Positions 2,546 through 31,000 of a DNA stretch of 64,000 bases are shown here, one piece after another. The stretch lies in the IMG/VR virus record IMGVR_UViG_3300035199_000184, positions 3,528 through 67,527 of that record; one strand, given 5' to 3'. Numbering within the stretch: the stretch's first letter is position 1; each line of letters opens with the position of its first letter. Position numbers and translations under genes: made by a program. The stretch is from a virus. The notes beneath the pieces are model-generated. The model saw nothing but the letters and a program-made list of their open reading frames with translations, was not told the DNA's origin and did no database searches.

Positions 2546-3298
2546 TTATACCAGGGTGCGGACGTGCTCGATCACTCCAGGCTGAATGCCTTTGTACTCG
2601 ACGCCCTCGGGGGGCATCCCTTCGAGTGCGGTCAGCAGTGCCGGCCAGTCAGTCTCGGCGTGATCCAGGTTGTACTGTCGGACAATGAATATGGCACAGT
2701 TAGCCTCGGGGAATCCCTTGGTAAGCTGTCGCTCGACCTGGACGTAGACCTCGGGGTCTGAGGGATTGAACCGGTACGTGTTCCTGTCCTTGTGGTATCG
2801 CAGCAGGTCCTGAGAGTACGCAACCCCCCAGTTGTAACGCACAAAGGGGCCTCCAGTCATCATCGAGTGGGTGAGTGCCGGCGGTAATGCCATGCCTGGG
2901 ACGTCTGCATGTGTGCCGGCAAACGATTCCCCGATCACTTCAGCGGGACTCCATCCACTCGGGAAGCAGAAGTGGAGCATGGCTAGCCAGTCCCGGTCCT
3001 CGGTGTAGCAGTGGATTGCGAAGTCCTCCTGCATTGCCATCGCTAGCTCATCCAGCGTAGCGTCGGCGGGCTCGTTGAGCTCCGCCGCGATCCATTCCCG
3101 CACGGTCTCACGGGCGAGCTCTGGCAGGAAGTGCTCCAGGTGAGGGTCGTGCGTGACGTTACGCTTGGCCTCGATGAATCGGTCGAAGTCCCGGTCCATC
3201 TGGAAGAACTGATCGTCCTGGTCGTGGCCGGTATGATGTGGGAACCTGTGCAGTCCAGGCTTCACGCTCCATCCATTACGGTAGGGGTGATACGTCAT
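2546..3298 (-). CDS. DUF3445 / heme-dependent oxidative N-demethylase alpha-subunit-like protein
   Basis: Motifs QEDF, CFPSGWSPxExIG, HxxVPG, RxNW and VERQxxxxFP; start at ATG 3298 overlapping the upstream TGA. Confidence 0.75.
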   Translation of the reverse strand: MTYHPYRNGWSVKPGLHRFPHHTGHDQDDQFFQMDRDFDRFIEAKRNVTHDPHLEHFLPELARETVREWIAAELNEPADATLDELAMAMQEDFAIHCYTEDRDWLAMLHFCFPSGWSPAEVIGESFAGTHADVPGMALPPALTHSMMTGGPFVRYNWGVAYSQDLLRYHKDRNTYRFNPSDPEVYVQVERQLTKGFPEANCAIFIVRQYNLDHAETDWPALLTALEGMPPEGVEYKGIQPGVIEHVRTLV

Positions 3299-3504
3299 TT
3301 CTCTCGAATCTTCCGTCGCATAGCCGTGTAAACTCGGTCGTGCTCTCTCCGTCTGCCTATGTGCCAGCAATTGCATGCTTCGCACAGGTACACGCTCATG
3401 CCTGACTTCGTCAGACCCCGAACTTGGCGTATCATCTTGGCTCTGGCGGCTACCGCCCCCTTTCGGGTGGAGTGCCGTGCTTTCTGGCAGTGACCGGTTC
3501 TCAT
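3295..3504 (-). CDS. Small basic Zn-ribbon phage protein
   Basis: C..K.R...VYLCEACNCWHIG pattern; ATGA coupling on both sides. Confidence 0.7.
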   Translation of the reverse strand: MRTGHCQKARHSTRKGAVAARAKMIRQVRGLTKSGMSVYLCEACNCWHIGRRREHDRVYTAMRRKIREK

Positions 3505-4025
3505 GACTGGGCCTCCTTGGCTCTCGCATCCGCGACGAACTTCTTGTGGAGTTTATGACCGGCTATCATGTCCACACCATGCTTGAGGCCGTCTCCGTGA
3601 TGGGCGATGCGGCTCAGGTAGGCATTCCGCTTACGCTTGGTGTCGAACTTCTCAGGGTCACCCAAAATCATGGAATGGGCTCCGGTGAGGCTCTCGAATA
3701 TCTCAGCGTCGATGCACAACATCAGCAGGACGTCGGCGGATCGATGGCGGAAAGCAACCATGGCTAGCTCTGAGGTAGACTGATTCCATAGCCTACCCTT
3801 CTCTTTCCAGGTGACTCGCCGCGACATCGAGTTGATCTTGTCAGTGTCGGTGAAGCACAAGAAATCGAACCCAGCCGAGGTCTCAGTGGCCCCAGCGGGA
3901 TCGAACAGCCAGCTACCCGTGGGCACTATCACCAGCAAGTCACCAACGCCGGAGTTCATGGCCTTCTTTTCGTGGGCGTTCATCTCTTTCCATATTCGCT
4001 TTGGCACTCCAGTGGGGCGGTTCAT
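3501..4025 (-). CDS. Hypothetical protein, possible degenerate nucleotidyltransferase fold (TGSWLF)
   Basis: ATGA coupling; TGS motif without clear DxD. Confidence 0.55.
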   Translation of the reverse strand: MNRPTGVPKRIWKEMNAHEKKAMNSGVGDLLVIVPTGSWLFDPAGATETSAGFDFLCFTDTDKINSMSRRVTWKEKGRLWNQSTSELAMVAFRHRSADVLLMLCIDAEIFESLTGAHSMILGDPEKFDTKRKRNAYLSRIAHHGDGLKHGVDMIAGHKLHKKFVADARAKEAQS

Positions 4026-6333: not shown

Positions 6334-7458
6334 TTAGAATACAAATTCGAGGCTCTCGGCCAGGATGGTCTTGATCCTGCACATCTCGGACTCGATGTTC
6401 TCCGAGATGCGAGAGGCCTTGCTGGTCTGCTTCAGCTTCCCGACCTGCTTGTACACCTTCTTGAGGCGTACCCCGGTGTCAGTCAGGGACTTCACGTTAG
6501 TCATGTCGGCCTCCTCCACGATGCTCTCGGCCTCCATCTTGAGGGTATTCAGCTTGAGAGCCTCGGGGTTAGCGATCTTGGTGACGATGTCCCTGGTCAC
6601 ATTGTGCTGGTCCGGGTCATTCCACATGGTGTGCTCCAGAACGCTCAGGTGCTCGGGCTCTACTGTCTTCGAGCCGGCCAGCCAAGCAGTGGCGTTGATG
6701 GCGGCAGTGGACTGGCGGATACGCCGGCAGCCCGTCATGACACCATTGCGGCGGAGCTCTTTCACGATAGCGTGATAAGAGTGCTCACACTCGGAGCTCG
6801 GCTTGAGTGCCTGAGCCTCGGCGGACGCCTTGTCGATCTCATCCCCACTGATCTTGAATCCGAGATCGGGGGTGAGGTCTTCCGGGGACGCCCACATCAA
6901 GCGGTGAAGTCCAGCGGACGTCGCAACCGGCTTAACGTGCTTGCGGATCAACCAGCGGTCAGCAAAGGCGTCGAGCCCCTGATCCGCCTTGGGGAATTCG
7001 TTAGACGTACCGATCATCGTCTTGACCGGGGTCTGACGAATCTCGTTCCCGTCCTCGAACGTGCCCTCATTGGTGATAGTCAAAAGCGAATTGAGTATGG
7101 CCGAGGAGCCCTTGAAGACTTCGTTGATGACCACAATCTCTGCCTCGGGCAGCTTGTTCGCGGTCAGGCGACGGTACTCGCCTTCTTTGTAGCCACGTAG
7201 GTCCAGGATACCGAACAGTTCATCAGGCATCGAGTACTTGGTGAGGGTACGCTTGAAGATTTTGGCGTCGATGACGTCAGCCCATAGCTCCGCTAGGAGT
7301 GTCTTGGCTGTACCGGGAGCTCCCAGCATAAGGAAGTTGTCGCCGATGATCGCTGCGGTCAGCAGCAGGTCAACTTCGTCCTCACGCTCGATGAGAGCGA
7401 CCTTGAACGCTTCGGCTGCCTGAGAGAACTTGTCGAACGCTGTCATTTTCTTGCTCAT
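6334..7458 (-). CDS. MoxR/RavA-family AAA+ ATPase
   Basis: Walker A GAPGTAKT, PDELFG, NEVFKGSSAILNSLL (Walker B reads NE), SNEFP, AFADRW. Confidence 0.9.
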   Translation of the reverse strand: MSKKMTAFDKFSQAAEAFKVALIEREDEVDLLLTAAIIGDNFLMLGAPGTAKTLLAELWADVIDAKIFKRTLTKYSMPDELFGILDLRGYKEGEYRRLTANKLPEAEIVVINEVFKGSSAILNSLLTITNEGTFEDGNEIRQTPVKTMIGTSNEFPKADQGLDAFADRWLIRKHVKPVATSAGLHRLMWASPEDLTPDLGFKISGDEIDKASAEAQALKPSSECEHSYHAIVKELRRNGVMTGCRRIRQSTAAINATAWLAGSKTVEPEHLSVLEHTMWNDPDQHNVTRDIVTKIANPEALKLNTLKMEAESIVEEADMTNVKSLTDTGVRLKKVYKQVGKLKQTSKASRISENIESEMCRIKTILAESLEFVF

Positions 7459-7483
7459 ATTGGTCTCCGAATGAGTAAGTGGG

Positions 7484-7726
7484 TTACTTGGAATACATGG
7501 TCTTGAGTGCTTCGACGACCAGGGACGAGCCGATGATCGCACAGAACACGAACGCTTCGGCTTTCTCCCTGTCACTGTCGATGAATTTCTTGGCGACGTC
7601 CTGCACGTTGCCGTTATCGTACTCACTGAATGCGTCGCCCATGTTCATTGCCAGTCCTAGTGCAGCATGGGGTCCGATCTTCTCGATCAAATCACTTGCC
7701 AGATGCGTCGGGCTCAGATTTTCCAT
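7484..7726 (-). CDS. Small hypothetical protein
   Basis: AAGGA RBS; overlaps the upstream stop. Confidence 0.55.
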   Translation of the reverse strand: MENLSPTHLASDLIEKIGPHAALGLAMNMGDAFSEYDNGNVQDVAKKFIDSDREKAEAFVFCAIIGSSLVVEALKTMYSK

Positions 7727-14834: not shown

Positions 14835-15875
14835 CTACTCCGACTTCGCTGTATCCTTAGCTTTCCCCTTGAAACCAATTCTCAGCGGCGAGCCAAGGGG
14901 TTGGGCCTGCCGTAGAATCTCGTTGTTATCAATAATCCCGTCTCCGTTAAAGTCATAATGGAGTTCCAGTACGACCGGAGGGAGGAATCTCATTATCTCA
15001 GCCACAGCCTCCTCGTCAAGCACAACCCCAGGTCCGGGGGGGCCTGTCATGCCCTCTGGTCCTCGGAGTTTTTCTAAGTACTTCTCGACGATTATGGGGG
15101 CGAGGGCCTCGGCCAGCTTGTCGTAGTCAATCTCCGGGGACGTGGGCTCTGGTGTGTCTGGAGGACATTTCTCGGGTAGCAACTTCGGAGGCCTAAACTT
15201 AGGACCTGCTTGGCCCGGAGGCAGTCACGTACCACCTGGAGGGCAGCGCCAGCCCAGCTTATTTAGCACCCGTGATGCGAACGACTCGATGTGCTCGGGC
15301 GAGACCGCATTTGTGTGGGTGAACCGAGGATTGGCCGAAAAGCCCTGGCCGGGGGCCGATATCTCGATAGCCATCCCAACAACTCGGGCTTGGTCGTCAA
15401 ATATCGGACCACCGCTATCGCCGGGGCGTACTGCCCCTAATAGTGTGTATTTGGTTTGAAGTTTTGTAGCCTTAAAGCTACCACCACCGTATCCATAAGC
15501 GTGGTAGGTCTTGCCTCGCTCGGCTCTGCCAACGGAATACGGGACCCAGGACTGCTCTCCGGTGTCGATGACGAACGCCGCAAGATCGTGCCCCTCGCCA
15601 TCTTTCCAGACTAACGTGTTGTTGTTGTCTACCCGGTACGAGACAGCCGGGTATGCGGTGTCTCCGAGCTTGGCGAAAGCGTCCCCTTGGGTGTTTAGTA
15701 CATGCCACGCCGTTATGACCAGTGATCTGTTTGCCGTGCCCTTCTGACTTGCGAGGATGAATCCGGTGCCGAGCCGGTCACCTCGACCAACACGTAAAAT
15801 TTTGGATGCAAAGGAATCACTGACTGGTAGTAACGCCAGACAGATCAGGGCCGCTGCTAGTAAAGCTCTCTTCAT
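14835..15875 (-). CDS. Secreted trypsin-like serine protease with an in-frame TGA (15225-15227) joining it to a Pro-rich/collagen-like C-terminal domain (346 aa if read through)
   Basis: Signal peptide; triad TAWH, DLA, GDSGGP; the frame continues past TGA as LPPGQAGPK...IDYDKLAE...GPEGMTGPPGPG...DFNGDG. Confidence 0.8.
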
Positions 15876-16765: not shown

Positions 16766-16999
16766 CTACCGGCTACAGCCGGGGCAGCATGCGGGATTGT
16801 TGGTAGAGTTGCAGTTGTCGCAACACTTGCATTCGTCACAGTCACAGGAGCCCGTGTCCGAACAGCCAGCACAACACTGACAGTCCTCACAGTCGCATCC
16901 AGAGTTGCTGGACGAGAGCAGGCCAATCGACGCAACAACTAAGATTATTGCTGAGAGTCCCGCTGCTGTTTTGCTTTTGATTAGTTTCTTTAGGTTCAT
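16766..16999 (-). CDS. Membrane-anchored metallothionein-like Cys-rich peptide (in-frame upstream start at 17164 also possible)
   Basis: AGGAG RBS; one TM/signal helix followed by 15 Cys in about 45 residues. Confidence 0.7.
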   Translation of the reverse strand: MNLKKLIKSKTAAGLSAIILVVASIGLLSSSNSGCDCEDCQCCAGCSDTGSCDCDECKCCDNCNSTNNPACCPGCSR

Positions 17000-17193
17000 A
17001 GCTAGGTTACTCCTATTTAGATTCCTTCTGACGCCCCAAACTGCGATCAGTTGGGCGACGATTATGGCCGCACCGATGATGAGCGACCCTCCTAGTAGAC
17101 CGGACGTGATGCCTTCGGCGATGCCGTGACAACTCACGTCGATGGTGATGTCTGATGTGTCCATTATATCACCCCCTGTGGCCTCGGCAAACT

Positions 17194-17763
17194 TTACTTC
17201 TCGTACCAAATATGGTCAGCAATTCCCCAGTCGATAGCCTGCGTTGCCGTAAAAAAAGTGTCGGATGTCTTTGAGCCAAAGCTCTTCCAAAACCGCTTGT
17301 CTTTGTTTGTGTTTAGAGTCATAGCATTTATCCAGGCCTCGTCGGTAAGTTCAAACCATTTCACTGTGGACTTGATGTTGGCACCCCGGTCCTCTAACTC
17401 TCCACCCCAGTCGTGGCACATGAACTGAGCGTTGGGGGCTACCCAGCGTTCCCCCTTGTCACCTGCTGCCAGAATCAGCGGGGCTGCTGACATGCAGCTA
17501 CCGAAGGCAAAGGTGTGGATCGGACACCGGATGGTGTTGATGATATCGTAGAGAGCCAGGGACTCGACTATGTCGCCGCCCGTGGAGTTGACGAACAGTT
17601 CCACGGGCTTGGCGGCGTTGGCTGTCTCCAGGTAGTAGAGCGACTTCACGGCGTTACTGATCGACTCGGTTTCCAGGTCTCCCACCAGGAAGACTCGGCG
17701 GTTAGCCAAATCGAGTCCACGTTCGAAGTATGCACCTGAGATGTCGTTCGACGACGTTGTCAT
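17194..17763 (-). CDS. clpP: ATP-dependent Clp protease proteolytic subunit
   Basis: RRVFL, FVNSTGG, CMSAA (Ser), FMCH (His), DTFFTA..AIDWGIAD. Confidence 0.92.
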   Translation of the reverse strand: MTTSSNDISGAYFERGLDLANRRVFLVGDLETESISNAVKSLYYLETANAAKPVELFVNSTGGDIVESLALYDIINTIRCPIHTFAFGSCMSAAPLILAAGDKGERWVAPNAQFMCHDWGGELEDRGANIKSTVKWFELTDEAWINAMTLNTNKDKRFWKSFGSKTSDTFFTATQAIDWGIADHIWYEK

Positions 17764-19074: not shown

Positions 19075-22000
19075 CTAATTTAGCAATTCGCCTAAGTTCT
19101 TGGCAGACTCAGCCTTACCTGGATGCTTTCTGAAGGACCTTCGTCGGTACTTATATGACTTCTGCTTCTTATACTTACTCAATACCCTAGTGAAGTAGGG
19201 ATTGTCGCTGTTGTTGATGAGCCACAATGCTGCTGCCTCTTGCTTCTCTTTCCAGGTCGCAATAGACTTTTCTCGTTTATCAATGTCGTCGCTATCGTAT
19301 GCTTCGTTCTCTGGATCTATGACACTGGGCATGCGGGCAGCTTGGGCTACTGTGGCTAGCGAATCCCAGGCGATCCTCTCATACTCCTGCTGTACCTTCA
19401 GGTGGTCTCGGTCTACTCCTGGGTTCTTCCGCAGGTACTTGCCCATCGTTTCTTTCCAGTCGTCCCCGGTCTCGGTTCCCTTAATTGGGGAGTCGATGGG
19501 GTCAGGAGCACCCCAATCAGTCATTTCCAGCCGTGCCCATGTCTGAGACAGACGGGCCATATTATTCAGGGCCTTCCGTTCTGCCTCTTTATCATTGGCT
19601 CTGCGGGCCGGCATCACTTCGTTGTCGAAGATTTCCTTAACTTCGGACCACAATCCTGCCGCAATCCTGGCGGACTGGGCGTCGTTACGCATCTGGTCGA
19701 TCTCTATCTGGGACTTGCCCTCCTCTTTGGCCTTGGTGATCTCTCTTCCAATGGCACCATGCGCTCGGTACGCATTGTGTAGTTCCTGGGTAGCGGCGTC
19801 CTCGAACTTAGGCTTGCCCTTCGGAGTCCAAACATGGTCCAGGATGTATCGCTTGGGACCAGAAATGGGGATACCGCCGGCACCTAGTGCGTCCAGGAAC
19901 TTGTCGCCGGCTACCTTTAACTGCTCCGGTCTCTTCGACTGCCCCTCGCGGATGTCGCCCTTAGCGTACTCGCCACCCGTAGTGAGTGCGCCCAGTGCCT
20001 TGCCGAAATCGACGACCTTGGTTATAGCGGAGGCGACAACCGTCTGTCGCGGTCTCTTGAAGTGATCGGGCTTGTCGTCATTAAGGAGCACATCCCTGGT
20101 CAGATCAATCCAGTCGCCTGCGGCTACGTATGTAGTGATCGCAACCCCGCCGGTGTCCCAGGCCAGTCCTTCCCAGAACCCTTGTTCTTCATCTTCATCA
20201 TCGCCACCAAATCCCAACATAGCCCACCATAGAGCCGTGCCGGCAACGACGCCTCGTTTTGTCGCGGCAATCATTACTGCGTTAAGCACCAGGGGAGCGA
20301 ACATCTTTTTAAGCATTATCCCGATAGCCTTAGGGCTGTTCATCTCGCCGAACTCCCCGTGCTTCCAGTCCAGGAATACCTGCCGCATCATGTTGGTGAT
20401 CTTGCTACGCTGGGTCCCATACGCGGTGGATGTTAACTTGAATATATCACCGTGGCGTCCCTCTCGTGCCAGACCAGAGATCGTCGATGCATCCCAGGTG
20501 GGCTGAGACCTCAGGAACACGTCCACTGCCATGTCATTAACTCGCTCGAAGAACTCAGCGTCCTCGACGATGGGGGTGGTGTCCTTAGCGGCAGCCTTTT
20601 CTGCCTTGATCTGCTGGGTTACTTTCCACTTCGAGCCTTCCCAGACCATGTAGCCGATCTGCATGTCCATCTCTTGAATGCCCCACATGCCTAGCTCGCC
20701 AAACTCGCTTATGGCCCAGCGTGTTCTGGCTAACAGGCCGGTCCGTTTTTCCATGCCTGGAGTAAAGTACTTGCCCTGCATGTAGAACTCCTGCATGCCC
20801 CCTCCACCGAGGCCGGCGGACAGTATCTGGTGCCCCCCACCTTGCTTACGCTCTCGGAAGAACGGGGAGTGCTTCTCCATCTCGTCGTTGAGTCGTCCCC
20901 GAGTTTTCCCTCTTACTTTTATAAACCCTCCATGGCCCATAGCCCTGAGACCCAGTATCTCCTGGGCAGTGACCCATGACGTTGTCTGAAAGAGTGCAAT
21001 GTGTAGCTTGAGGCCGAGGATACCCTTATGTGCCATCGACATATATGACTTGAGCATCGCGGCTGAGGCGTCCATCCCTGGACGGTTAACCCCGGCAAAG
21101 TGGTCAAGGTTAGCCTTCATTTCCTGCCTTAGCCGGCGGGCCTTCATCGGATGGAACCGAGCAGTAACCTCGGACTCCAGTATCCTCAGTAGATGCTCAG
21201 CGTCCCGATACGCCTCTTGCTTGGAGATGTACAGATTTGTCATCTGCATGGTCTCGAAGAAGTTAGAGAACAGCCCCTCGATCAGGAACGGTGCGTTGGA
21301 CCGATTGCGGTGAAGGAAAATATGCTGGGACTCGATAGATCCCTCTTTGTCCTTGGCGTCTCGTATGTCTTTGTCCTTGGCGCTGGCATAGGCGGGGTCA
21401 AGTTTCATGGCCCGTGCTCGGTGCCAGTACTCGGGATTGTTTGCGATCTCGCTACCCGTTACCCGCACGCTGACTTCGTTCAACTGGTCACGCATGTGGG
21501 TGTTCAGGTATCGCTTCATCGCCTTGGCAAGCGTCATGATCTTCTTGTACTTGGGCTTCTCGGACTCCCTTAGGATAACGTCGAGCGTCTCTGCGGTGAC
21601 CTTGCTGGCTGTCTCGCCGGCACGATTCATATTCTTAGCGACGACGCCCAGGTTGTTGTTGCGTAACATCTCGGCCTTGGTCATGGGGTCACTGATCATA
21701 TTGATCAGGCCGGCGAACTCGTCCATGCCGATTACTAGGTTGGGAACCTCCTCGATGACTCGCCCCTTATTGTCCCGGATAGGCGGCATCTCAATCTCAA
21801 CTGAATTTTCGTCCTTATGCCAGTCTGAGATATCCTTATCGGTTACACCTAGATGCTCCCGAACTGAATTAACGAAGTCCATAGCTGTATGGTTCAGTTC
21901 GAGCATCTTCTCTTCGGCTTTGTTCACATTATCCAGGAGGATCTTTGTGGCTTCCGGCCCCCTGCCTACTAGCTCGACCACCAGGGAGATTTGATTCCAC

Positions 22001-25000
22001 TGCTGCTGTCGGAAGTAGTTATTAGCACCTTCTGTAAGTTTCCCCGAGAACGTAGAGTCATGGCGATCCTTCTGTCCTTCTCGCTGTTCCCTGGTGGACT
22101 GCTTCGGGTTAGCCTTAGCCAGTTCCTTCTTGGCTTCCTCGACGATCCTGGCAGACTCCTTCGCGTCCCTGGCTGTGATCAGTCGGTACTTGGTCTTCTG
22201 TGCATGTGCAGTGGCCTCGATGCCTCGCAGGATAAGGCGGAATACGTCGATCTTCTGTATGACCTGAAGGTCTAGTGCGTCTCGCAGTCCCTTGATCTTG
22301 GCGTTGATTGCATTACGCCGCCCTCTTACTCTGTCCTTCTCTGACTCCTCGGTCAGTGCAGACAACTCAGGCAGATTCTTCTTCTGCTCTGCGAGCTCGG
22401 CGAGTTTCTTATTGATCGCCTCAGTGTCCCTGCCCCAGGTGTCGATATCGGCAGCCTCAAGGACCTCCGCCATGTTATCCTTTAGCCGCTGTGGGATCGT
22501 GCCGTTGGGGTCAGCGGCATTCAGTACGCTCTGCGCATGCTCGATCATTGCCTTACTGGGGAACGCTTTACCTGACGCAATAGCCTTGCCGAGTAGACCG
22601 GACAGTGCGTCCAGTCTCTCCAGGTACTTCTTCTGGTCCTCAATGTCAGTGACTGGTGCCTGCTCAGCGTCATTGATCGCGTCCTTGAGCTTGCTCATCA
22701 CTTCGCCGAGCTCAAAGCTGTCTCGGTATCTCTCGGCAGACTCCCATACTCTCTTGATCTGTGACGGCGTCCGAGCTCTCACTAGGTGACGCATGATCCG
22801 GTCAACGACGGGCTTGGGCATGAATGCTTTCATGTAGTCGTACATACCCAGGTGAATTTCAACCAACTCCTTCTTGCCCGCCTTGGTGCCCTCCTTGTAG
22901 CCTCGGTCCAGGCCGGCGATCAGGCCAACGACGTAAGCCTCCTTCTTGCCGTCTCTCTTGCCGGCCTTGTAGCCACGGGCTTCCAGCTTGTCGTGCACCT
23001 TGCGTGAGTCCCTGGCGAGCTTCGCTATGTTCATGGTCATGCGGGCGTCGGGCTCTGCGTACTTCAGGATTTCTGCGGCGAGCTCGTCGCTATCCAGCGG
23101 GGCGTCGGCCAGGATCTTGCGGACGATCTTAGACATATCAGATGCCTTGTCGGCCTTGGCTTGCTTGTCGCCAGGGGATCTCTGGGCGTCCTTCCTCTTC
23201 TTGGCTGCCTTGGCTCTCCTGGCAACGCTGGCTTCATCGTCCTTGAGCTCACGCTTTGGTGGAGCAGCCATCGCAGAGGACTCGGTACTCCGCTCGGCGT
23301 TCCTGGTGCCCATCTTTGGCGTCTTAACGAATACCGTATTGCCTACTGAGATGGCGTCGGTCCCGCCCAGGACTTCTGTCCCGGTTCGCTTGTCGTAGAA
23401 GAACGGTGCCTTCTTGGGGTTGTACCCCACGGGGGTGTAGTCATCGAAGTCTGAGGGGATCTCCGTTGCGTCCTTGTCTACCCGTCCCTTCACTGTTGCG
23501 ATGGGCGACTTGGCCTTTTCCCCTGATTGGATTTCTCCAGCCATACGCTCGTCGCTTACGAACGTAACGTCGCCCTTCATGAACACGATACCAGTGTATG
23601 TCAGCACGTCACTGGGAACTCCGCTCTTGGAGGACCTTGCGTGGATCGTCTGGAAGTACTGCCCCGTGCTTGAGTAGATCGGAATGTCGATCCGCACGTA
23701 GACGTCACTGTCAGTGGGTATGTCGTGATTCTCTCCCAGGGTCGCCAGTTGATTCTTGGATGCCATGGAGAGAATGAGTGACTCCGATGGGATGCCTGTA
23801 TTCTTCAGCCACTCGGAGTTGGTCGAGTCTCCGTGTAATTCTTCGAACCTTTCCTGTGACGCCTTGGACCAGTCCCTGAAGTTCAGGTCTGTCTTCTTGT
23901 CACCCTTCTCGATGATGTAGTGGTCAAACTGACTGCGATACTCTGGCTCCTTACTCTTGGCCCATACGTATAGACGACGCTCGTCCATGCCACGCTTAGT
24001 CTCCAGGTGATCCGGGGCACCTTCTACTTCGGACTCTAGTACCCCCAGGTCCTGGGGCAGAGTCAGTATCTCCGTGCCCCATGGATTGGCGGTGTCACTG
24101 ACTGGTCCGGGGGTCCTAATGGCAGCGGCGGACTCGCCCTTTACCCGCTCGAAGTAGCTGTCGTCAATGGGGAGCAGTAGCTTCGTTAGTTCCTCAATAA
24201 GATCGTCTCTCTCTTTAGAGAGCTTCGCGTCATCTTGCCCGAAGGCTCTCTCCCTCTCGATACTTTCTAGTCGTCTATGTATCCTCGCTCTCTCTTCCTT
24301 GATAGCGGGCAGGTCCTCATTGAGTCGCCTTCGGTTCTCATTGATTGTTCTGGGGAGACCTGTCGTCAGTACGAGGTTCTCCTGTTCCTTCACTAGCTCA
24401 GAGATCATGGTGTCGGTTAGGGCCTGGACCTCTTCAAGAGCAGATGTTCCTTTTACGCCCAAGAACGACATGAGGTCTTTCACAACAGCCATCACGGCGT
24501 CGAAGAAGTTGCCCCCTCGGATTCCCTTGTATCGCATAGACCCAGGCACTTTCTGCTTCTGTAGCCATGCCATGAATTCAATGTTTGAGAATGACTCGGT
24601 AATTAACTCGGCGGGATTTTTTAGGCCATACCAATCGGTCGTTTCTCCTGGAATCAGGTCTTCCCACCCCGTCGCTTTGCCTTTCTTCTTATTCTTCCGG
24701 TATAGGTATCCCCAGATTTGCAGCAAACGAGAAGACGCCGCAACTTGCTTCTTGGATAGACCTGTCGCCTTCGCCCTGTCCCTCAATAATATACCCAATC
24801 TCGTAGGATCGGTTGTGTCTTTAAGGAGCTTGGAATAGATTTGTCCAGATAACTGCATGTCATCTGCCGGTCCCGTTCCTCCATACGTCGGGGCACGCAT
24901 ATTCATCGGCATGACAAGATTGATGGTGTCCACGGTCAGTGCGTGCAGTACTTCATGAAGCACCGTGCCGGCCAGATTGCCGCCACCGCCACCTTTGTTT

Positions 25001-28000
25001 ACATGTATTGCACTGAGATAAATTTCGCCGTCTTTTCGGATGTACTTCCCGGCATACGTATGAGCATCGAGATCGTCCTTCCATATGACCTGCCCTGTGC
25101 CTGACGTGTGGCGTCCAAGACTCCCTATCATCACAGTACGGGACCACTTCTCATTCGGATCGTCAGTCTTAGCCTCTTCGTCCTTTTCTATGTTCTTGGC
25201 GGCGGCGTCCTGAACTTGCTGTAGTCTGGAGGTAGCCGCAATGAGTGCATCGAGCAGAACCACTTGGTCTGGCAGCAGTGCTCTCGCTCTGCCCCCATGG
25301 CTGGCCTTGAGCTCGCGTAGCACTTCTTCATAGGTGCCCAGTGAGCGTTCCCTCTTGTCAACCACTGCCAGTGCCAGTTGATCCAGGAGCAGCTTTGGGG
25401 TGGGGGTCTTCTGAGATGCTTTGAAGTCCCACTGATGCATGAGAGCCTCGTCTCTCTCTTCTACTCGCTGCTTGAACTCCCTCCATTTCTGGTTTCTCTT
25501 TCGTTCTTCTGTATCTACATTGGTTCCCTGGCCCCTGCTCTTGTTTCTTTGTATCCTCAGTCGTCTCTGGGCGGCTGTCTCTTTTGGTATTCCAGGGGCT
25601 GGTTCCTTTAGGCTTTCGGTGGATTCTTCTTTGAAGCTACCTTTAGTGCTGCGAGTGTCTGCTCCAGACTCATCTCCCCTAGCGGGTGGTGCTCCTCGTG
25701 CTTCTTGGCTAATGAATCCAGTTGTGGACTCTGTTGAAAAGATTCCAGTGCTTTTGTTAGCGCGTCGGTTTTCTTCTTGTCGCTCATATTCTTCTTCTCC
25801 TAGTTCATCTTTGACTAGCGTCGTAGCGTTACGGTCGAAGTCATTGTCTCGTACTGTTGGTGGCAGTCCTACTTCCTTGAACAGATGCTTCTCGAAGTAC
25901 CAAAGCACGCTCTGCACCTGGGCGGGCTTCATGTCCACCCCTCGTCTCTTGAGCTCGCCTACTATCTCGGCGACTACTTCGTCAAACAGCTTTCGCATTC
26001 CGCCGGCACCGGGATCATCTACGACCCTGTTGACTACGTCGTGCATGCCCTTGGTGAGCTTGGCTTTCTTAGCCCTGGCTATGTCTTCTGGAGAAAACCT
26101 TGCCATCTGCTCGTCGGAGAATCCCTTTGCCTTTTCTGAAGGCTTGCTGCTCAGGGCGTTAGCGATCCCGCTAAGGACTACGTGGGCTGATCCAAGAAGA
26201 TCGGGATCCTTCTGGTCTTTACTGGTCTTCACCAAGGGGCGTTTAGTAACGACATCCCTGGGACCACCAGTGGATGAGTTGAAGTAGGAATACTCCTCGG
26301 CGTATGTCTTGTCGGCGTAATCCACAGAGGCTTGATTGTCTTCTGCCCTGACCTTGAACTTCTGCCTTTGGCTTTTATTGGGAAGGGCCTCCTTAGCCGC
26401 GAGGTATTTCTCTTCTGTCAGCTTCGTGCCTGCTTTGATTCCTGTCTTACCTGGATCGACAACGATGTACTTAACTTGGAACTTCTTGGGGAGCGGCTCT
26501 CCTGTGAGTCTCTCGTATTTCTCTCTGAAGTTCTTCTGCTGTAGAAGCGTCGCGTATGGTGCCAGTTCCCCGAGGTATCGGTACATGCTCCTGGCGAACC
26601 AGCGGTCTTGTGTCACTACACTCAGATCCCCGCGTAGGTTCGTGTAGAACGTGCCCACCTTCGGCCCGAACAGGTTGCTGACGTGAATCTCGTCATTCGT
26701 TCGACGAGAGCTAACGTCCACTCCCTTCACTGCCTTACGAACGACCTTTTTATCTTCCTTTTTCTCGCCAAAGTACTCCGATGACTTGAGGTCTTTGACC
26801 TTGACCGTCTTGCCCAGTAAGTCTAGGTAAGCGTCCCACTTGTTCTCTTCATTGATTTCTTTCCCCTGGGCCTTCAGTCGATCCTCGACGACTTCACTAT
26901 TAAGCGTGTTGACCAGCAAGTTGAGAGACTTCTTGATTGCTGCGGCTTTGCCGTCATACTTCAGACCGAGGATCGCCTTGACGTCCCCCTTCTCCGACAT
27001 CGCCCTGTAGGCGTCTACGGCATTCTTTAGGTTCTGCTCCACCTTGGTCTCGGTGGACGTGAGTGCCGTAAACAAAGTGAGCTTCAGTCTGGCTATCTCG
27101 ATCTCTCGCAGGATGGCCTTACGCTCGTCTTCGGTTGCCCCCTCTAGTCGTTTCTTGTTTTGCTCGGAGTGGGGATTCATCTCGGGGAACATGTAGGAGA
27201 TTTTGTCTAGGGCCTCCTGTGTGTTCTTTGTGTACCATTCAGCGGCCTCTTCGTAGGTGTAAGGGAACTTCTCGTTGGGTCCTTCGCCTTTCGATTCCCT
27301 CGGTAAATTATCCATTATCCACTGGATCTCGTCTGACGCCTCTTCTCTGGCGAACTTATGGAACGCTGATCTTGCCCTTCCTGCGGGGGAGTCCGGGTCA
27401 GCGAACTCGCCATTGACGATGAGCTCGATGTCCCAAGACTGGGACTCTTCATTCCATCGCTCTCCGAACATGCGATTGGTTCGTTCTGTTTCCGCTGCTA
27501 CTTCTCCCTTTTTATTCAGCACCCCACGCATGAATGTCTTGGGGTTGAGAAGACTTAGGATGTCGGTCGCAAATGAGAACGCTGGGGAGTCCGTGCTTGT
27601 TTTCGTAGTTCCAGAGAGCCCCTCGATCTTTCTGTCTTCAAGAGCGTGGGTGCCCCTGTCTGTTCGGGCAGTCTCTCCCACAGTTTGTCGGGCTATGTCT
27701 CCTAGCACCTCAAGCAGGGTCTGTACTGTCGCCTCCCCTTTCTTGAAGGACTTCTTAGAGGAACCAAACAGGGAGTCACTTAGTTTTAGATTCGCCTTCT
27801 TAATAATATCCCTGAGTGCCTCGACCAAGCTCTTGAGCAGGGAGCGAATCTCTGATTTCTCCTTGGGGGTTTTAGCAGCAGCGGCCATCTCTTTTAGGAA
27901 GTCAAGTCCTGCTTCTATTGCGTCTTGCCCTGTGAGATTGCCTCCAGCGAAGTGATCCTGGATGTACTGAGTAACTGCCTCTTCTTTTGCTATGTTATCG

Positions 28001-31000
28001 TCTATGCCATGCAAAGCTGAGCCCACTGCTCGGGCGGCTGCGAGCTTCTCCTGATACCACTCGCCGGCAGCCTTGAGACCTTCCGGGTCATACTCCTGGA
28101 GGGCATCAAACAGCCTGAGACCCATTTCCGGTGAGGTTCTGAACACGCTGTGAATCCACTCATGAGCGATAACCCCAACCCGATATCCCTCATCTACCCC
28201 CTGGGTTGACTGAACCATGAGGTACTTTGGATCGTTGATCGTGTTCATTCCACCGATCTTCTTGACAGTAGACGGGGCATCTATGAACATGATTTCCCTG
28301 CCCAGTGCCTTGGCGAGCTTAGCCAATTCTTTTTCGGCGGCAGTGTATTCGTTCTCTGTCTTTAGATGAGCGTCATCTCCAAAGTAGTACTCGACATGAT
28401 GAGCCATGGATTCCCTGGAAGTACTAGACTCCCCTTCCATAAACGCATCAACTTCGCTGACGATTCGAGGACTAATCTTAGGCTTGGGAGCCGCCTTAGG
28501 CTTAGGAGTCGCCTTGGGCTTAGTGGCAGTAGTGTCGCCTGCAACGGCGAAGGGGGGAGCACTCTCGTCCCTGAGTTTTTGTGCTGCGGCGGCGTCCGCC
28601 TTGGCAGCAGCCTCGTTGCCTGCTAACTCATGGGCAAGGCCCCGCTTGTGATACGCATGCGAGTCAGACGGATTTTTGTTAATCCGCTCGGTCATCGCCT
28701 CTATCTCTGCATGGATCCCTTCGGAGTCGCTCTGCTGAGCTTGAGACGACGCCTCACCAGGAGGCACAATGTCTTCATTTTTTAGCTGCTCGCGGGCCTC
28801 TTCCCTTCGGGCCTCCCTGGCTTCTGAATTCGCACGCCCCTTAACTGGCTTTGGCCCTGGGCCATTCCTGAGCAGGTCGAATACCACCTCTGCGGCGTCG
28901 ATTCCATCGCCCGTTTCAGCATTCTCGCCCAGTTCAGTCTTAGTCCCCAGAATCCCTTCGGTATCGATTCCTTCTTGCCTGAGATCTCTAGCAACTACGT
29001 CCAGGTTCTTGACTGCGTCGGCGTCTCTAAGTTCACTGCGTCTCTCTTTCCACCTCGCAGGTGTCATGTAGGGAATCCCGAGCTTCTTGAATGCCTCTGT
29101 TCGGATTCTCTGCCTATTGTCCCACTGTCTTTTTTCTGATTCGTAATTCTCTTCCGCCCTTTGATCGACCGCACGATCATAGTCCTCTTGGGTGGGCTTT
29201 GGTGCGGGCGTCGGGTCTACGTCGAATCCTGACCCGTCATCTATGGGCGTGACTACTGGGGTATCTTCGGGCGTTACTACCGGGGTATCTTCACTCGCCT
29301 TCTCGGCGGTCGGCGTTCCCGTTTTGTCACTAAGTTCAGAAATGACATCTGCATCAGGCTCCGATAATTCAACGTCATCGGCCTCATCATCAACGATATC
29401 ATCGGTAGCAGTCTCGTCACCGAGGTCAAGGAAATCATCGGTGGACGTCTCGTCACCGAGGTCAAGGAAATCATCGGTGGACGTCTCGTCACCGAGGTCA
29501 AGGACATCATCAGGATTGTAGTCCGGGTCAATGCCGTCAAGCGCGGCGTCTTCAGCGGCGGAAGAATCAGCCTCTTCTTGATCATTAGCTTCAGCTTCTG
29601 CGGCTTCAGCTTGGTCTGCTAAGTCGTTCTTGATCTTCTCGCTTTTGGCCTCCTGCTCCGCCTTGATCTTGTCCTGTGCTTCCATGAACTTATGGAGGCG
29701 TTCTCTCTTCTCCTTAGGGGAACCCGCAGTGTCCTCTCCGGCGATTTCAAGTAGCCGATTGACTTCGCTGTTGTCTACCTTCTTGCCGTCCAGGAGATCC
29801 GCTGTTGAATAACCCTGGAGCTCCATGGAGACTCGGGCACTGAATATCTGGTCTTCTTTTTCAGCGGCTTCAGCGACTTCCGCTAGGGTCTTTTCTATGA
29901 GCTCAACCTGGGAGTCGATGGTGTCTAGGGCTTGCTGTTTATCCCCTTCGCTGAACTGGTCATCTCCTGGTATGTCGATCTCAGCCCTAAGTTTCTTGAG
30001 CCTAGCGATGTCGGCCTCTGCCGCCGACTTAAGCATCTCGGCCTGCCCCTTGGCCCGTGACTTCTCATACTCGGCCTCGGTTATCGGGAAGTCCAGGATG
30101 GCGTCCTGCATTAACTTCTTCTGTTGATCATCTGGCTTGCCCGTGCCTTCACGGTTGGGATCGTGACTGTCTATCAAGCCACGAGCTCTGTCGAGTGCGC
30201 CTTCGGAACCAATAAGGAGCCCAGATGATTCGTCAGTCTTGATCCCCAAGAAGTCACGTCGCCTAGCGTTCCTGGCTATCTCCTGTGGGCTCGCATCCTC
30301 TGCATCGGGGGTCATTGCCTGATTGACTAACCAAGCCGCGTAGGAATCCTTGTGTTTTACTACCGGGGCCTGCTCTTTGTCACCGATGGGCTTGCCCTTG
30401 TCGTCCATCTTGGTATGACGGTCCTCAAAGTAAGCCTCGACATCTCTAGCCTGAAGGAGTTTTCTAACCTTCTCTCCATCGGCCTTGCTTATGGACCCAT
30501 CATAGAATGACTCCATCAGTCGCATGCCTTCTTTTTCACCGAAGGCGTCTATGTATAGCTGCGACTCTCCCTTGTGTTCCTTCATCCACTTTGCGCCCTT
30601 GATCGCTTGCACGATATTGATCGGACCCGTGGTAATGAGCGTGGACTTCAGGACGTCCATGAACTCGTCGACTGTCCCGAAATGCCCCTGCTTATTGAAC
30701 GTCTGGTTGAGATGAACGAGAGGCTCTTCGATGAGCTCTCCACCAGTCGCACGGATGAACTGACGAGCGGATCCTTTGCCGACGTCCTTTAGGCTCTGCG
30801 TGAACAAGCCCTCAGCGCCGGGACCAAAGACCTTGTGCACGATGGCCTGCATGGCGACCTCGGGGATGCCCTGGGCTGCACCCACCAGTAATCCATCAAT
30901 AAGGTCGCCACCCTCGATCACATGCCGCAGTGTCTCTTCCGTTGTGATCTGTCCGCCCATCGTGCCGTACATACCCCAGTTAAGGGCAGCCACTTTGGAT

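What the first reader, a model, noticed from the sequence alone, without database searches (positions are those of the whole stretch)
14835..15875. In-frame UGA with SECIS-like hairpin: candidate phage selenoprotein protease
Seen: the protease ORF and the downstream ORF share one frame, separated only by TGA at 15225-15227: ...WRCPPGGT*LPPGQAGPKFRPPKLLPEKCPP. The downstream ORF has only a TTG start with no convincing RBS. After the UGA the mRNA reads CUG CCU CCG GGC CAA GCA GGU CCU AAG UUU AGG CC, which can fold as GGCC-AAGC-[AGGUCCUAA]-GUUU-A-GGCC. Known (from memory): E. coli fdhF reads UGA CAC GGC CCA UCG GUU GCA GGU CUG, with GCAGGUC starting 15 nt after the UGA, the same heptamer and spacing as here. 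UGA is an ordinary stop elsewhere in this genome (many ATGA overlaps), so this is not genome-wide recoding. Inference: the UGA sits where a second Cys of a CxxGxxC-type motif would be, so host SelB could insert selenocysteine and fuse the protease to a Pro/collagen-like tail. Leaky UGA-CUG readthrough giving two isoforms is the main alternative.
Basis: partly seen in the sequence, partly recalled or inferred. Interest (0 to 1): 0.85.

Follow-up and report, generated by a model that had tools for sequence, protein, structure and literature searches.

The report
Candidate selenocysteine site in phage protease
A marine phage's secreted protease gene stops at a conserved UGA just where related proteins carry a cysteine and then run on into a collagen-like tail, so the UGA is probably read through, perhaps as selenocysteine, which would be a first for a phage but is not proven.

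Summary
On the minus strand a 216-aa signal-peptide trypsin-like protease (15228-15875) ends at TGA 15225-15227, and the same frame stays open for 129 codons to 14838. An independent run and a relative with 55% identity also carry the TGA, so it is not an error.

The main new result is 25 distant homologues in which protease, Pro-rich linker and tail form one uninterrupted protein. Of these, 19 have a CxnC cysteine pair at the junction. The phage clade keeps the first Cys in an invariant CPPGGT, and the UGA stands where the second Cys belongs. The match is exact against a Cx5C metagenome homologue.

Both lineages with DNA keep Pro-Pro codons directly after the UGA, upstream of any canonical start. 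Both also carry an fdhF-type hairpin (NGUN tetraloop) 18-25 nt downstream, which occurs at about 1% of control positions.

Weak points: the generic SECIS model is unspecific here, Rfam finds nothing, the host is unknown, and the phage has no sel genes or tRNA. Two closer relatives have tail ORFs called from ATG or GTG, and I could not fetch their DNA.

Odds: selenocysteine recoding 0.5, gene fission with reinitiation 0.27, near-cognate leaky readthrough 0.15.

The parts
15228..15875 (-). Secreted trypsin-like serine protease, 216 aa. It has an N-terminal hydrophobic signal-like segment (residues 1-23). The catalytic His58, Asp97 and Ser154 fall in conserved columns.
   Evidence: ORF. Pfam Trypsin_2 E 3.8e-11, 44.4 bits against a cut-off of 27.6. 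H58, S154 invariant and D97 nearly invariant in the 19-sequence alignment A3. Confident AF2 model of this domain. That the segment is a signal peptide is inferred from the sequence.
15228..15245 (-). Invariant C-terminal motif CPPGGT. Cys211 is the only Cys of the mature short protease.
   Evidence: All five protease clusters (56-77% identity) end in W.CPPGGT. Codons differ synonymously between the window and G001. Cys positions are 12, 211 and 237.
15225..15227 (-). In-frame UGA, the candidate recoding site. It stands at the position of the second Cys of the family's CxnC pair.
   Evidence: Also TGA in G001 and L001. Cys pair present in 14 of 17 plus 5 of 8 fused homologues. Exact ungapped match to CRPGVIC on L005. 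Identical in run X2.
15190..15206 (-). Small hairpin GG-U(bulge)-CCUA-[AGUU]-UAGG-CC. Its loop starts 25 nt after the UGA. It has the same architecture as the E. coli fdhF apical SECIS hairpin: a bulged U on the 5' side and a tetraloop with G-U at positions 2-3.
   Evidence: It is part of the MFE folds. Energy -4.5 kcal/mol against -4.2 for the fdhF mini-hairpin. This feature class occurs at 1.07% of positions on the coding strand, in 110 of 5000 synonymous resamplings and in 39 of 5000 dinucleotide shuffles.
15190..15215 (-). It excludes the small hairpin. The GCAGGUC heptamer starts 15 nt after the UGA.
   Evidence: -7.4 kcal/mol, MFE of the 26-mer. Heptamer and offset are identical to E. 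coli K-12 fdhF.
15135..15224 (-). Pro-rich linker of 30 codons, open in the protease frame. Codons +2 and +3 are Pro-Pro. The only canonical start codon is TTG at 15180-15182 (codon +15), and it has no SD.
   Evidence: G001 has K-P-P after its TGA with different Pro codons. Fused homologues continue with a Pro-rich linker after the second Cys. Disordered in the AF2 model.
14838..15134 (-). Tail domain. It comprises an EIDYDKLAE helix (15114-15134), four collagen-like G-X-Y triplets (15027-15062), an LPPVV strand, an EF-hand-like loop DFNGDGIIDNNE (14919-14954) and PLGSPLRIGF (14871-14900). It has no signal peptide of its own.
   Evidence: Homologues P0006, P0007, P0009 and P0010. The same module lies at the C-terminus of fused proteases and of other exported proteins. 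EF-hand Pfam hits are below threshold, E 0.08-0.12. AF2 gives a helix at 251-270 and strands at 301-306 and 320-325.
14835..14837 (-). TAG stop that ends the 346-residue readthrough product.

Best explanation
The protease and the tail are one gene whose UGA at 15225-15227 is recoded, most likely as selenocysteine by the host's SelB and tRNA-Sec. Ribosomes that terminate release a free 216-aa secreted protease. Ribosomes that decode the UGA make a 346-residue protein in which Cys211 and residue 217 restore the family's Cys pair (here C-x5-U) at the base of a Pro-rich linker. That linker carries a collagen-like, Ca-loop-containing tail that would oligomerise or tether the protease. Shown: the conserved UGA, the fused Cys-pair homologues, the coding-type conservation directly after the UGA, and an fdhF-type hairpin in both lineages. 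Inferred: Sec as the inserted residue, a Sec-competent host, the two-isoform outcome and the role of the tail.
For: 1) All 5 protease clusters found (56-77% identity) end at exactly W.CPPGGT. The two lineages with DNA both have TGA there, followed in frame by a homologous tail (55% identity over residues 7-340, one TGA inside).
2) An exhaustive profile search with the tail found fused proteins without a stop. Of 17 protease-tail fusions, 14 have CxnC (n = 2, 4 or 6) at the junction. Of 8 further fusions, 5 have it. L005 has CRPGVIC, whose second Cys (TGT) aligns without gaps to the UGA and is followed by x-P-P as in the window.
3) The mature short protease has a single Cys, and it is invariant. 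That is odd unless a partner residue follows.
4) Codons +2 and +3 after the UGA are Pro-Pro in both lineages with different third bases. They lie upstream of the first canonical start (TTG at +15 in the window, GTG at +6 in G001), and neither start has an SD, although most genes of this phage have ATG plus an SD.
5) The tail has no signal peptide. In other proteins this module sits behind N-terminal hydrophobic or exported domains.
6) A hairpin with an NGUN tetraloop, 6 bp or more, and a loop 16-37 nt after the UGA is present in the window (7 bp, bulged U, 25 nt) and in G001 (GGUC loop, 18 nt, as in fdhF). Such a hairpin occurs at 1.07% and 1.12% of coding-strand positions, in 110 and 14 of 5000 synonymous resamplings, and in 39 and 25 of 5000 dinucleotide shuffles.
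7) GCAGGUC lies at the fdhF offset.
8) There is precedent. A marine GOS survey predicted Sec forms of secreted serine proteases, one with a CxxU motif (PMC2398784, passages read).
9) The TGA is identical in an independent run.
Against: - Rfam has no match.
- The 81-nt region folds no better than shuffles (z 0.17).
- The published generic bSECIS constraints pass at 111 of 300 random coding-strand positions here. G001's hairpin is only -6.8 kcal/mol alone and -8.3 with flanks, around the -7.5 limit.
- My NGUN criterion was set after seeing the hairpins. Only 1 of 3 E. coli SECIS elements meets it: fdhF does, fdnG and fdoG do not.
- The two phage hairpins sit at different distances (25 and 18 nt) and are not homologous structures.
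- With X at the stop, MAFFT puts the Cx4C homologues' second Cys under T216, one residue before the UGA. The 16-of-17 Cys column was obtained with U sent as C.
- Relatives P0006 and P0007 have tail ORFs called from ATG and GTG about 28-29 residues before EIDY. The window's +1 codon is CTG. This fits reinitiation.
- DNA is available for only two lineages.
- No close relative has Cys at this site.
- The host is unknown, and the phage has no tRNA or selB.
- A Sec in a structural, non-oxidoreductase position is unusual. This last point is general knowledge, not a call.
Confidence: 0.5

Rival explanations
1. Gene fission. An ancestral fused gene suffered a TGY-to-TGA nonsense change at the second Cys. 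Protease and tail are now two proteins. The tail is started by termination-reinitiation at a nearby NTG codon: CTG at +1 or TTG at +15 in the window, GTG at +6 in G001, and ATG or GTG in P0006 and P0007.
For: Gene callers report separate tail ORFs starting with M (P0006) and V (P0007) at about the position of the stop. The +1 codon is CTG in the window. Cys codons are one step from TGA, so a nonsense origin also places the UGA at a Cys column. A shared frame is the expected legacy of a fission and is common among neighbours anyway. Tail-only ORFs that begin with a Pro-rich stretch exist in other lineages (P0033, P0039, P0041, P0052). No Sec machinery or SECIS family was detected.
Against: Neither the window nor G001 has an SD or a canonical start near the UGA. 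G001's +1 codon is AAG. Pro-Pro codons directly after the UGA are kept with synonymous differences although they would be untranslated. A tail made alone has no signal peptide, while its partner is exported and the module elsewhere follows exported domains. The unpaired Cys211 stays invariant. An fdhF-type hairpin in both lineages is unexplained.
Confidence: 0.27
2. Programmed leaky termination. The UGA is read at a low rate by a near-cognate tRNA (Trp, recalled as the usual one in bacteria). This gives a fixed ratio of free protease to tail-bearing protease, as in RNA phage Q-beta. The identity of the inserted residue is unimportant.
For: The UGA is followed by C in the window and A in G001; I recall these as weak termination contexts in E. 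coli, and no call tested this. The stop and in-frame tail are conserved, and codons after the stop look coding. Downstream hairpins could slow termination. It needs no special host machinery. Stop-codon readthrough was first found in Q-beta (PMC8310308, passage read).
Against: It does not explain why the stop is at the missing second Cys, why Cys211 remains invariant without a partner, or why the hairpins have the G-U tetraloop. The +4 base is not distinctive: the phage's other TGA stops use G5, T4, A4, C4.
Confidence: 0.15
3. Artefact or decaying gene: a sequencing error, or a recent inactivating mutation in a fused gene.
For: A single in-frame TGA between two homologous halves is what an error or a fresh nonsense mutation would look like.
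Against: The same stop position occurs in 5 of 5 clusters down to 56% identity. TGA is present in G001 and L001. The sequence is identical in an independent run. The tail is conserved at 45-79% identity with in-frame indels only.
Confidence: 0.03

Closest known systems
Bacterial selenoprotein genes with a SECIS in the coding sequence, prototype E. coli fdhF
   Same: An in-frame UGA at a position where homologues have Cys, with coding sequence continuing in frame. The window has GCAGGUC 15 nt after the UGA, as in fdhF, and G001 has a GGUC tetraloop starting 18 nt after the UGA, as in fdhF. The window hairpin has a bulged U and a tetraloop with G-U at positions 2-3.
   Different: In the window GGUC is not in the tetraloop of the MFE fold, and the fdhF-like hairpin lies 7 nt further downstream. 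There is no long lower stem as in fdhF (-14.2 kcal/mol). The protein is a secreted protease, not an oxidoreductase. The gene is in a phage with no Sec genes. No Rfam or experimental support.
Predicted Sec-containing serine proteases of the GOS marine metagenome ('Putative secreted serine protease MucD', CxxU, 2 Sec and 12 Cys sequences; 'Trypsin-like serine protease', COG5640, 9 Sec and 128 Cys). Zhang & Gladyshev 2008, PMC2398784, passages read.
   Same: Marine origin, secreted serine protease, and a UGA replacing one Cys of a close Cys pair. The fused homologues found here include CxxC forms: CPSC, CPQC, CPEC, CAVC, CPTC.
   Different: Here the spacing is C-x5-UGA and a collagen-like tail follows. 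The carrier is a complete phage genome. I could not see their alignment (figure 6D) or any supplement, so whether it is the same family is untested.
Q-beta A1 readthrough protein (leaky UGA at the end of the coat gene)
   Same: A phage makes a short product and a C-terminally extended product from one frame across a UGA (PMC8310308, passage).
   Different: Q-beta is an RNA phage whose extension is a virion protein. There the residue inserted is irrelevant. Here the UGA replaces a conserved Cys.
Poxvirus glutathione peroxidase selenoproteins (fowlpox, molluscum contagiosum)
   Same: Virus-encoded genes that rely on the host Sec machinery. The fowlpox SECIS lies inside the coding sequence (PMC8310308, passage).
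   Different: They are eukaryotic viruses with a eukaryotic SECIS type and encode a redox enzyme captured from the host.

Membership tests
Bacterial selenoprotein gene | In-frame UGA with conserved coding sequence on both sides | tested here: met
   The protease before the UGA and the tail after it are conserved in the window and G001, and the TGA is present in both.
Bacterial selenoprotein gene | Homologues with Cys at the UGA position | tested here: met
   19 of 25 fused homologues have a CxnC pair at the junction. L005's Cx5C aligns exactly. Caveat: an unbiased MAFFT run places the Cx4C homologues' second Cys one residue before the UGA.
Bacterial selenoprotein gene | SECIS hairpin after the UGA, by the bSECIS constraints: loop 3-9 nt, G in the first two loop positions, 16-37 nt from the UGA, MFE at or below -7.5 kcal/mol (PMC13188914 figure legend) | tested here: inconclusive
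   The window passes (-12.9 kcal/mol, loop AGUU, 25 nt). G001 is borderline (-6.8 or -8.3). The model also passes at 111 of 300 random positions. A stricter fdhF-type hairpin is present in both lineages and is rare, about 1%. That criterion was set post hoc, and fdnG and fdoG fail it. Rfam finds none.
Bacterial selenoprotein gene | Sec machinery (selA, selB, selC, selD) in the translating cell | not testable with these tools
   The host is unknown. Nothing was found in GenBank phages or in GTDB genomes. The phage has no tRNA and no selB. selA and selD were not searched.
Bacterial selenoprotein gene | Selenium in the protein | not testable with these tools
   Needs 75Se labelling or mass spectrometry.
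Programmed stop-codon readthrough (Q-beta A1 type) | Conserved leaky stop followed by a conserved in-frame extension that lacks its own initiation signals | tested here: met
   Whether ribosomes actually pass the stop is not testable here.
Peptidase S1/PA clan, Pfam Trypsin_2 (PF13365) | Domain match above the gathering score and a His-Asp-Ser triad | tested here: met
   44.4 bits against 27.6. H58, S154 invariant and D97 nearly invariant in A3.
GOS 'putative secreted serine protease MucD' selenoprotein family | Sequence homology to the published Sec reads, and a CxxU motif | not tested
   Only text passages could be read. The figure and supplements were not available. The motif here is C-x5-UGA, not CxxU.

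The most novel reading that the evidence does not exclude
This is the first phage-encoded selenoprotein. The secreted serine protease has a structural Cys pair whose second member has become selenocysteine (C-x5-U). The host's selenium status and SelB would then decide how much protease is released free and how much carries the collagen-like tail. The whole clade of these marine phages would depend on Sec-competent hosts.
Probability: 0.45. Interest if true: 0.85.

Novelty: new variant of a known kind. Interest (0 to 1): 0.72.

Why it matters
In the searches I ran no phage selenoprotein gene turned up. What did turn up were poxvirus selenoproteins, tRNA-Sec genes reported in huge phages without any target gene (PMC10747093, passage), and predicted Sec serine proteases in marine metagenomes of unknown carrier (PMC2398784). 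A phage gene that needs host Sec decoding would tie phage fitness to selenium and to host Sec capacity. It would also be a usable marker for host prediction, and it would give a Sec site outside the redox enzymes. If the residue is not Sec, a conserved UGA readthrough that makes two protease isoforms in a dsDNA phage is still an uncommon form of recoding. Either way the case is directly testable with a short reporter. It also shows that gene callers split this family into two ORFs in every relative found.

Tried and rejected
- Genome-wide UGA reassignment is rejected. 17 minus-strand ORFs end in TGA and several form ATGA overlaps.
- A suppressor tRNA or tRNA-Sec in the phage is rejected. ARAGORN finds none in the window or in the whole 67.5-kb record.
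- Rfam found no family at gathering scores in the window. In 15050-15350 there were only three chance-level hits at E 2-7, none a SECIS.
- The +4 base gives no signal.
- Whole-region folding energy gives no signal.
- Search for relatives' DNA:
  - Viral contig scans found only G001.
It returned L001, a near-copy of G001 at 99.68%, plus distant proteases, and not the contigs of P0002-P0004, P0006 or P0007.
  - GTDB genomes gave nothing, and GenBank phages gave no match.
  - A broad tail alignment was too diverse for the search for related loci.
- Independent split lineages: a profile search with 14 fused homologues listed 26 hits at E 1e-5 or better among 8000 scored candidates. None was a protease ORF ending just before the second Cys.
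- Read laying used contigs only. Runs X3, X4 and X5 cover other parts of the stretch, and no variants were seen anywhere. This says nothing about population variation.
- The AF2 model gave no contact between the tail and the protease, and the linker is disordered. No fold search was run.
- The GOS paper's alignment figure and all supplements were not visible to me. They may show whether this family was already predicted.

Full report
WHAT IS THERE. The window is bases 3528-67527 of a 67,527-bp IMG/VR virus record that CheckV rates complete. Most genes lie on the minus strand. They usually start with ATG behind a Shine-Dalgarno motif, and they use TAA, TAG and TGA as stops, including ATGA overlaps. 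At 15225..15875 (-) there is a 216-aa ORF. It has a hydrophobic N-terminus and a Pfam Trypsin_2 domain (E 3.8e-11, 44.4 bits against a cut-off of 27.6). His58 and Ser154 are invariant, and Asp97 nearly so, in a 19-sequence alignment. The ORF ends ...WRCPPGGT-TGA. The same frame then runs on for 129 codons to TAG at 14835-14837.

THE STOP IS REAL AND OLD. A word-indexed search of 5.8 billion clusters with the 346-residue readthrough product returned five proteins, the window's own among them. Their lengths are 216, 215, 215, 208 and 208 aa at 56-77% identity, and all end in W.CPPGGT. DNA could be obtained for one other lineage: IMG/VR record G001 and its 99.68% twin L001. There the protease also ends ACG TGA, and a homologous tail follows in the same frame. 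The Pro and Gly codons of CPPGGT differ synonymously between the two lineages. A contig of an independent seawater run covers 15186-15327 without any difference. Error and fresh pseudogenisation are therefore excluded.

THE TWO HALVES ARE ONE PROTEIN ELSEWHERE. An exhaustive HMMER search of 1.84 billion representatives with a tail profile gave 60 hits. Seventeen of them are single proteins made of a protease, a Pro-rich linker, one or more IDYxKLA...LRGPxGxxG collagen-like modules and an LPP...PLG.P end. Fourteen of the 17 have a close Cys pair exactly at the protease/linker junction:
- CxxC in four;
- Cx4C in eight (for example CPGGSC, CPDGSC, CGPGGC);
- Cx6C in two (including CPPGTQPC).
A second profile search added eight fusions, five of them with the pair. 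Metagenome locus L005 carries CRPGVIC-SPP, a Cx5C pair. It lines up without gaps on C-PPGGT-UGA-LPP, and its second Cys codon is TGT.

Two alignment caveats apply. When U was passed to the aligner as C, 16 of 17 homologues had Cys in the UGA column. With X at the stop, MAFFT puts the Cx4C homologues' second Cys under T216, one residue earlier. The statement that holds is this: the clade has lost the second Cys, and the UGA stands in its place within one residue, exactly so for the Cx5C form. The mature short protease keeps one invariant Cys.

IS THE UGA PASSED? A shared frame alone proves nothing. Same-frame neighbours are common here, and a fission would leave the halves in frame. Three observations favour translation across the stop.
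- In both lineages the codons directly after the UGA read x-Pro-Pro with different third bases (CTG CCT CCG against AAG CCC CCT). They lie upstream of any canonical start: TTG at codon +15 in the window and GTG at +6 in G001. Neither start has an SD, in a genome where SD plus ATG is the rule.
- The tail has no signal peptide. In other proteins this module follows exported or hydrophobic N-terminal parts.
- Both lineages have a particular hairpin downstream, described in the next section.
Against this, the closer relatives' tail ORFs are called from ATG (P0006) and GTG (P0007), roughly where the stop should be, and the window has CTG at +1. This would suit termination-reinitiation. Their DNA could not be fetched.

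SECIS QUESTION. Rfam gives nothing, and the region as a whole folds like its shuffles. I applied the published bSECIS constraints, taken from a figure legend in PMC13188914. The window passes (-12.9 kcal/mol, loop AGUU, 25 nt from the UGA) and G001 is borderline. So do 111 of 300 random positions on the coding strand, so this test has no power here.

I then took E. coli K-12 fdhF from its record. G001 has GGUC at the fdhF offset of 18 nt, as the tetraloop of a 5-bp hairpin. The window's MFE hairpin, GG-U-CCUA[AGUU]UAGG-CC, has fdhF's architecture: a bulged U on the 5' side and a tetraloop with G-U at positions 2-3. It lies 7 nt further downstream.

I defined a hairpin class as an NGUN tetraloop, 6 bp or more, one 5' bulge allowed, and a loop 16-37 nt downstream. 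Its frequency in controls is:
- 1.07% and 1.12% of all coding-strand positions in G000 and G001;
- 110 and 14 of 5000 synonymous-codon resamplings;
- 39 and 25 of 5000 dinucleotide shuffles.
The criterion was chosen after I had seen the data. Of the three E. coli SECIS elements, only fdhF meets it. I count this as moderate support, not proof.

CONTEXT. The phage carries no tRNA and no selB, so any Sec insertion must be done by the host. The host could not be inferred. In print, a GOS survey predicted Sec forms of secreted serine proteases in marine metagenomes, one with CxxU (PMC2398784, passages). I could not see its alignments. My searches found no described phage selenoprotein. One paper reports tRNA-Sec genes in huge phages (PMC10747093, passage). 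Poxvirus selenoproteins and Q-beta readthrough are reviewed in PMC8310308 (passages).

VERDICT. I weigh four points: the Cys correspondence, the invariant lone Cys, coding-type conservation right after the UGA, and the paired fdhF-type hairpins. On these I put selenocysteine recoding at about 0.5, fission with reinitiation at 0.27, near-cognate leaky readthrough at 0.15 and artefact at 0.03. The AF2 model is confident for the protease and disordered in the linker, and shows a small helix-and-strand tail. That fits a tethering or oligomerising appendage but adds nothing on decoding. The decisive data are the relatives' DNA, the host's sel genes, and a selB/selC-dependent reporter or 75Se test.

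Noticed in passing
window 19075-32532 (-): A single ORF of 4,485 codons, about a fifth of the phage genome.
   Followed up: no
window 17194-17763 (-): Phage-encoded ClpP (Pfam CLP_protease, E 3.6e-33), two genes upstream of the secreted protease.
   Followed up: partly
window 2546-3529 (-): HODM_asu-like (haem-dependent oxidative N-demethylase alpha-like) protein, Pfam E 8.1e-21. No close relative in GTDB genomes.
   Followed up: partly
window 6334-7626 (-): MoxR-type AAA ATPase (Pfam bpMoxR, E 5.9e-47) in a phage genome.
   Followed up: no
window 16766-17209 (-): ORF with a hydrophobic stretch followed by a very Cys-rich C-terminus.
   Followed up: no
proteins P0015, P0028, P0038, P0045, P0051: The same tail module (collagen-like triplets, LPP strand, YDD.NGDG loop, PLG.P end) is attached to unrelated N-terminal parts. 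These include a Cys-rich exported segment and a zincin-like domain (HEVCH, Pfam PF13485 precomputed). The tail therefore looks like a portable C-terminal appendage.
   Followed up: partly
proteins P0012, P0014, P0018, P0029, P0059: Membrane-anchored proteins built of many tandem copies of an A.LL...H.DKLRGP.GP.G collagen-like unit, related to the helix-plus-triplet part of the tail.
   Followed up: no
proteins P0033, P0039, P0041, P0052: Tail-only ORFs in other lineages begin with a Pro-rich stretch and have no signal peptide. They may be the downstream halves of further stop-split genes. Their DNA could not be fetched.
   Followed up: no
window 15237-15245 (-), motif C-P-P-G: The invariant end of the protease contains Pro-Pro-Gly, which I recall as a strong EF-P-dependent ribosome stalling motif. 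It lies two codons before the UGA. Whether this affects termination is untested.
   Followed up: no
runs X10, X13: Two marine oligo-dT RNA-seq runs hold a small share (0.06-0.08) of the stretch's words.
   Followed up: no
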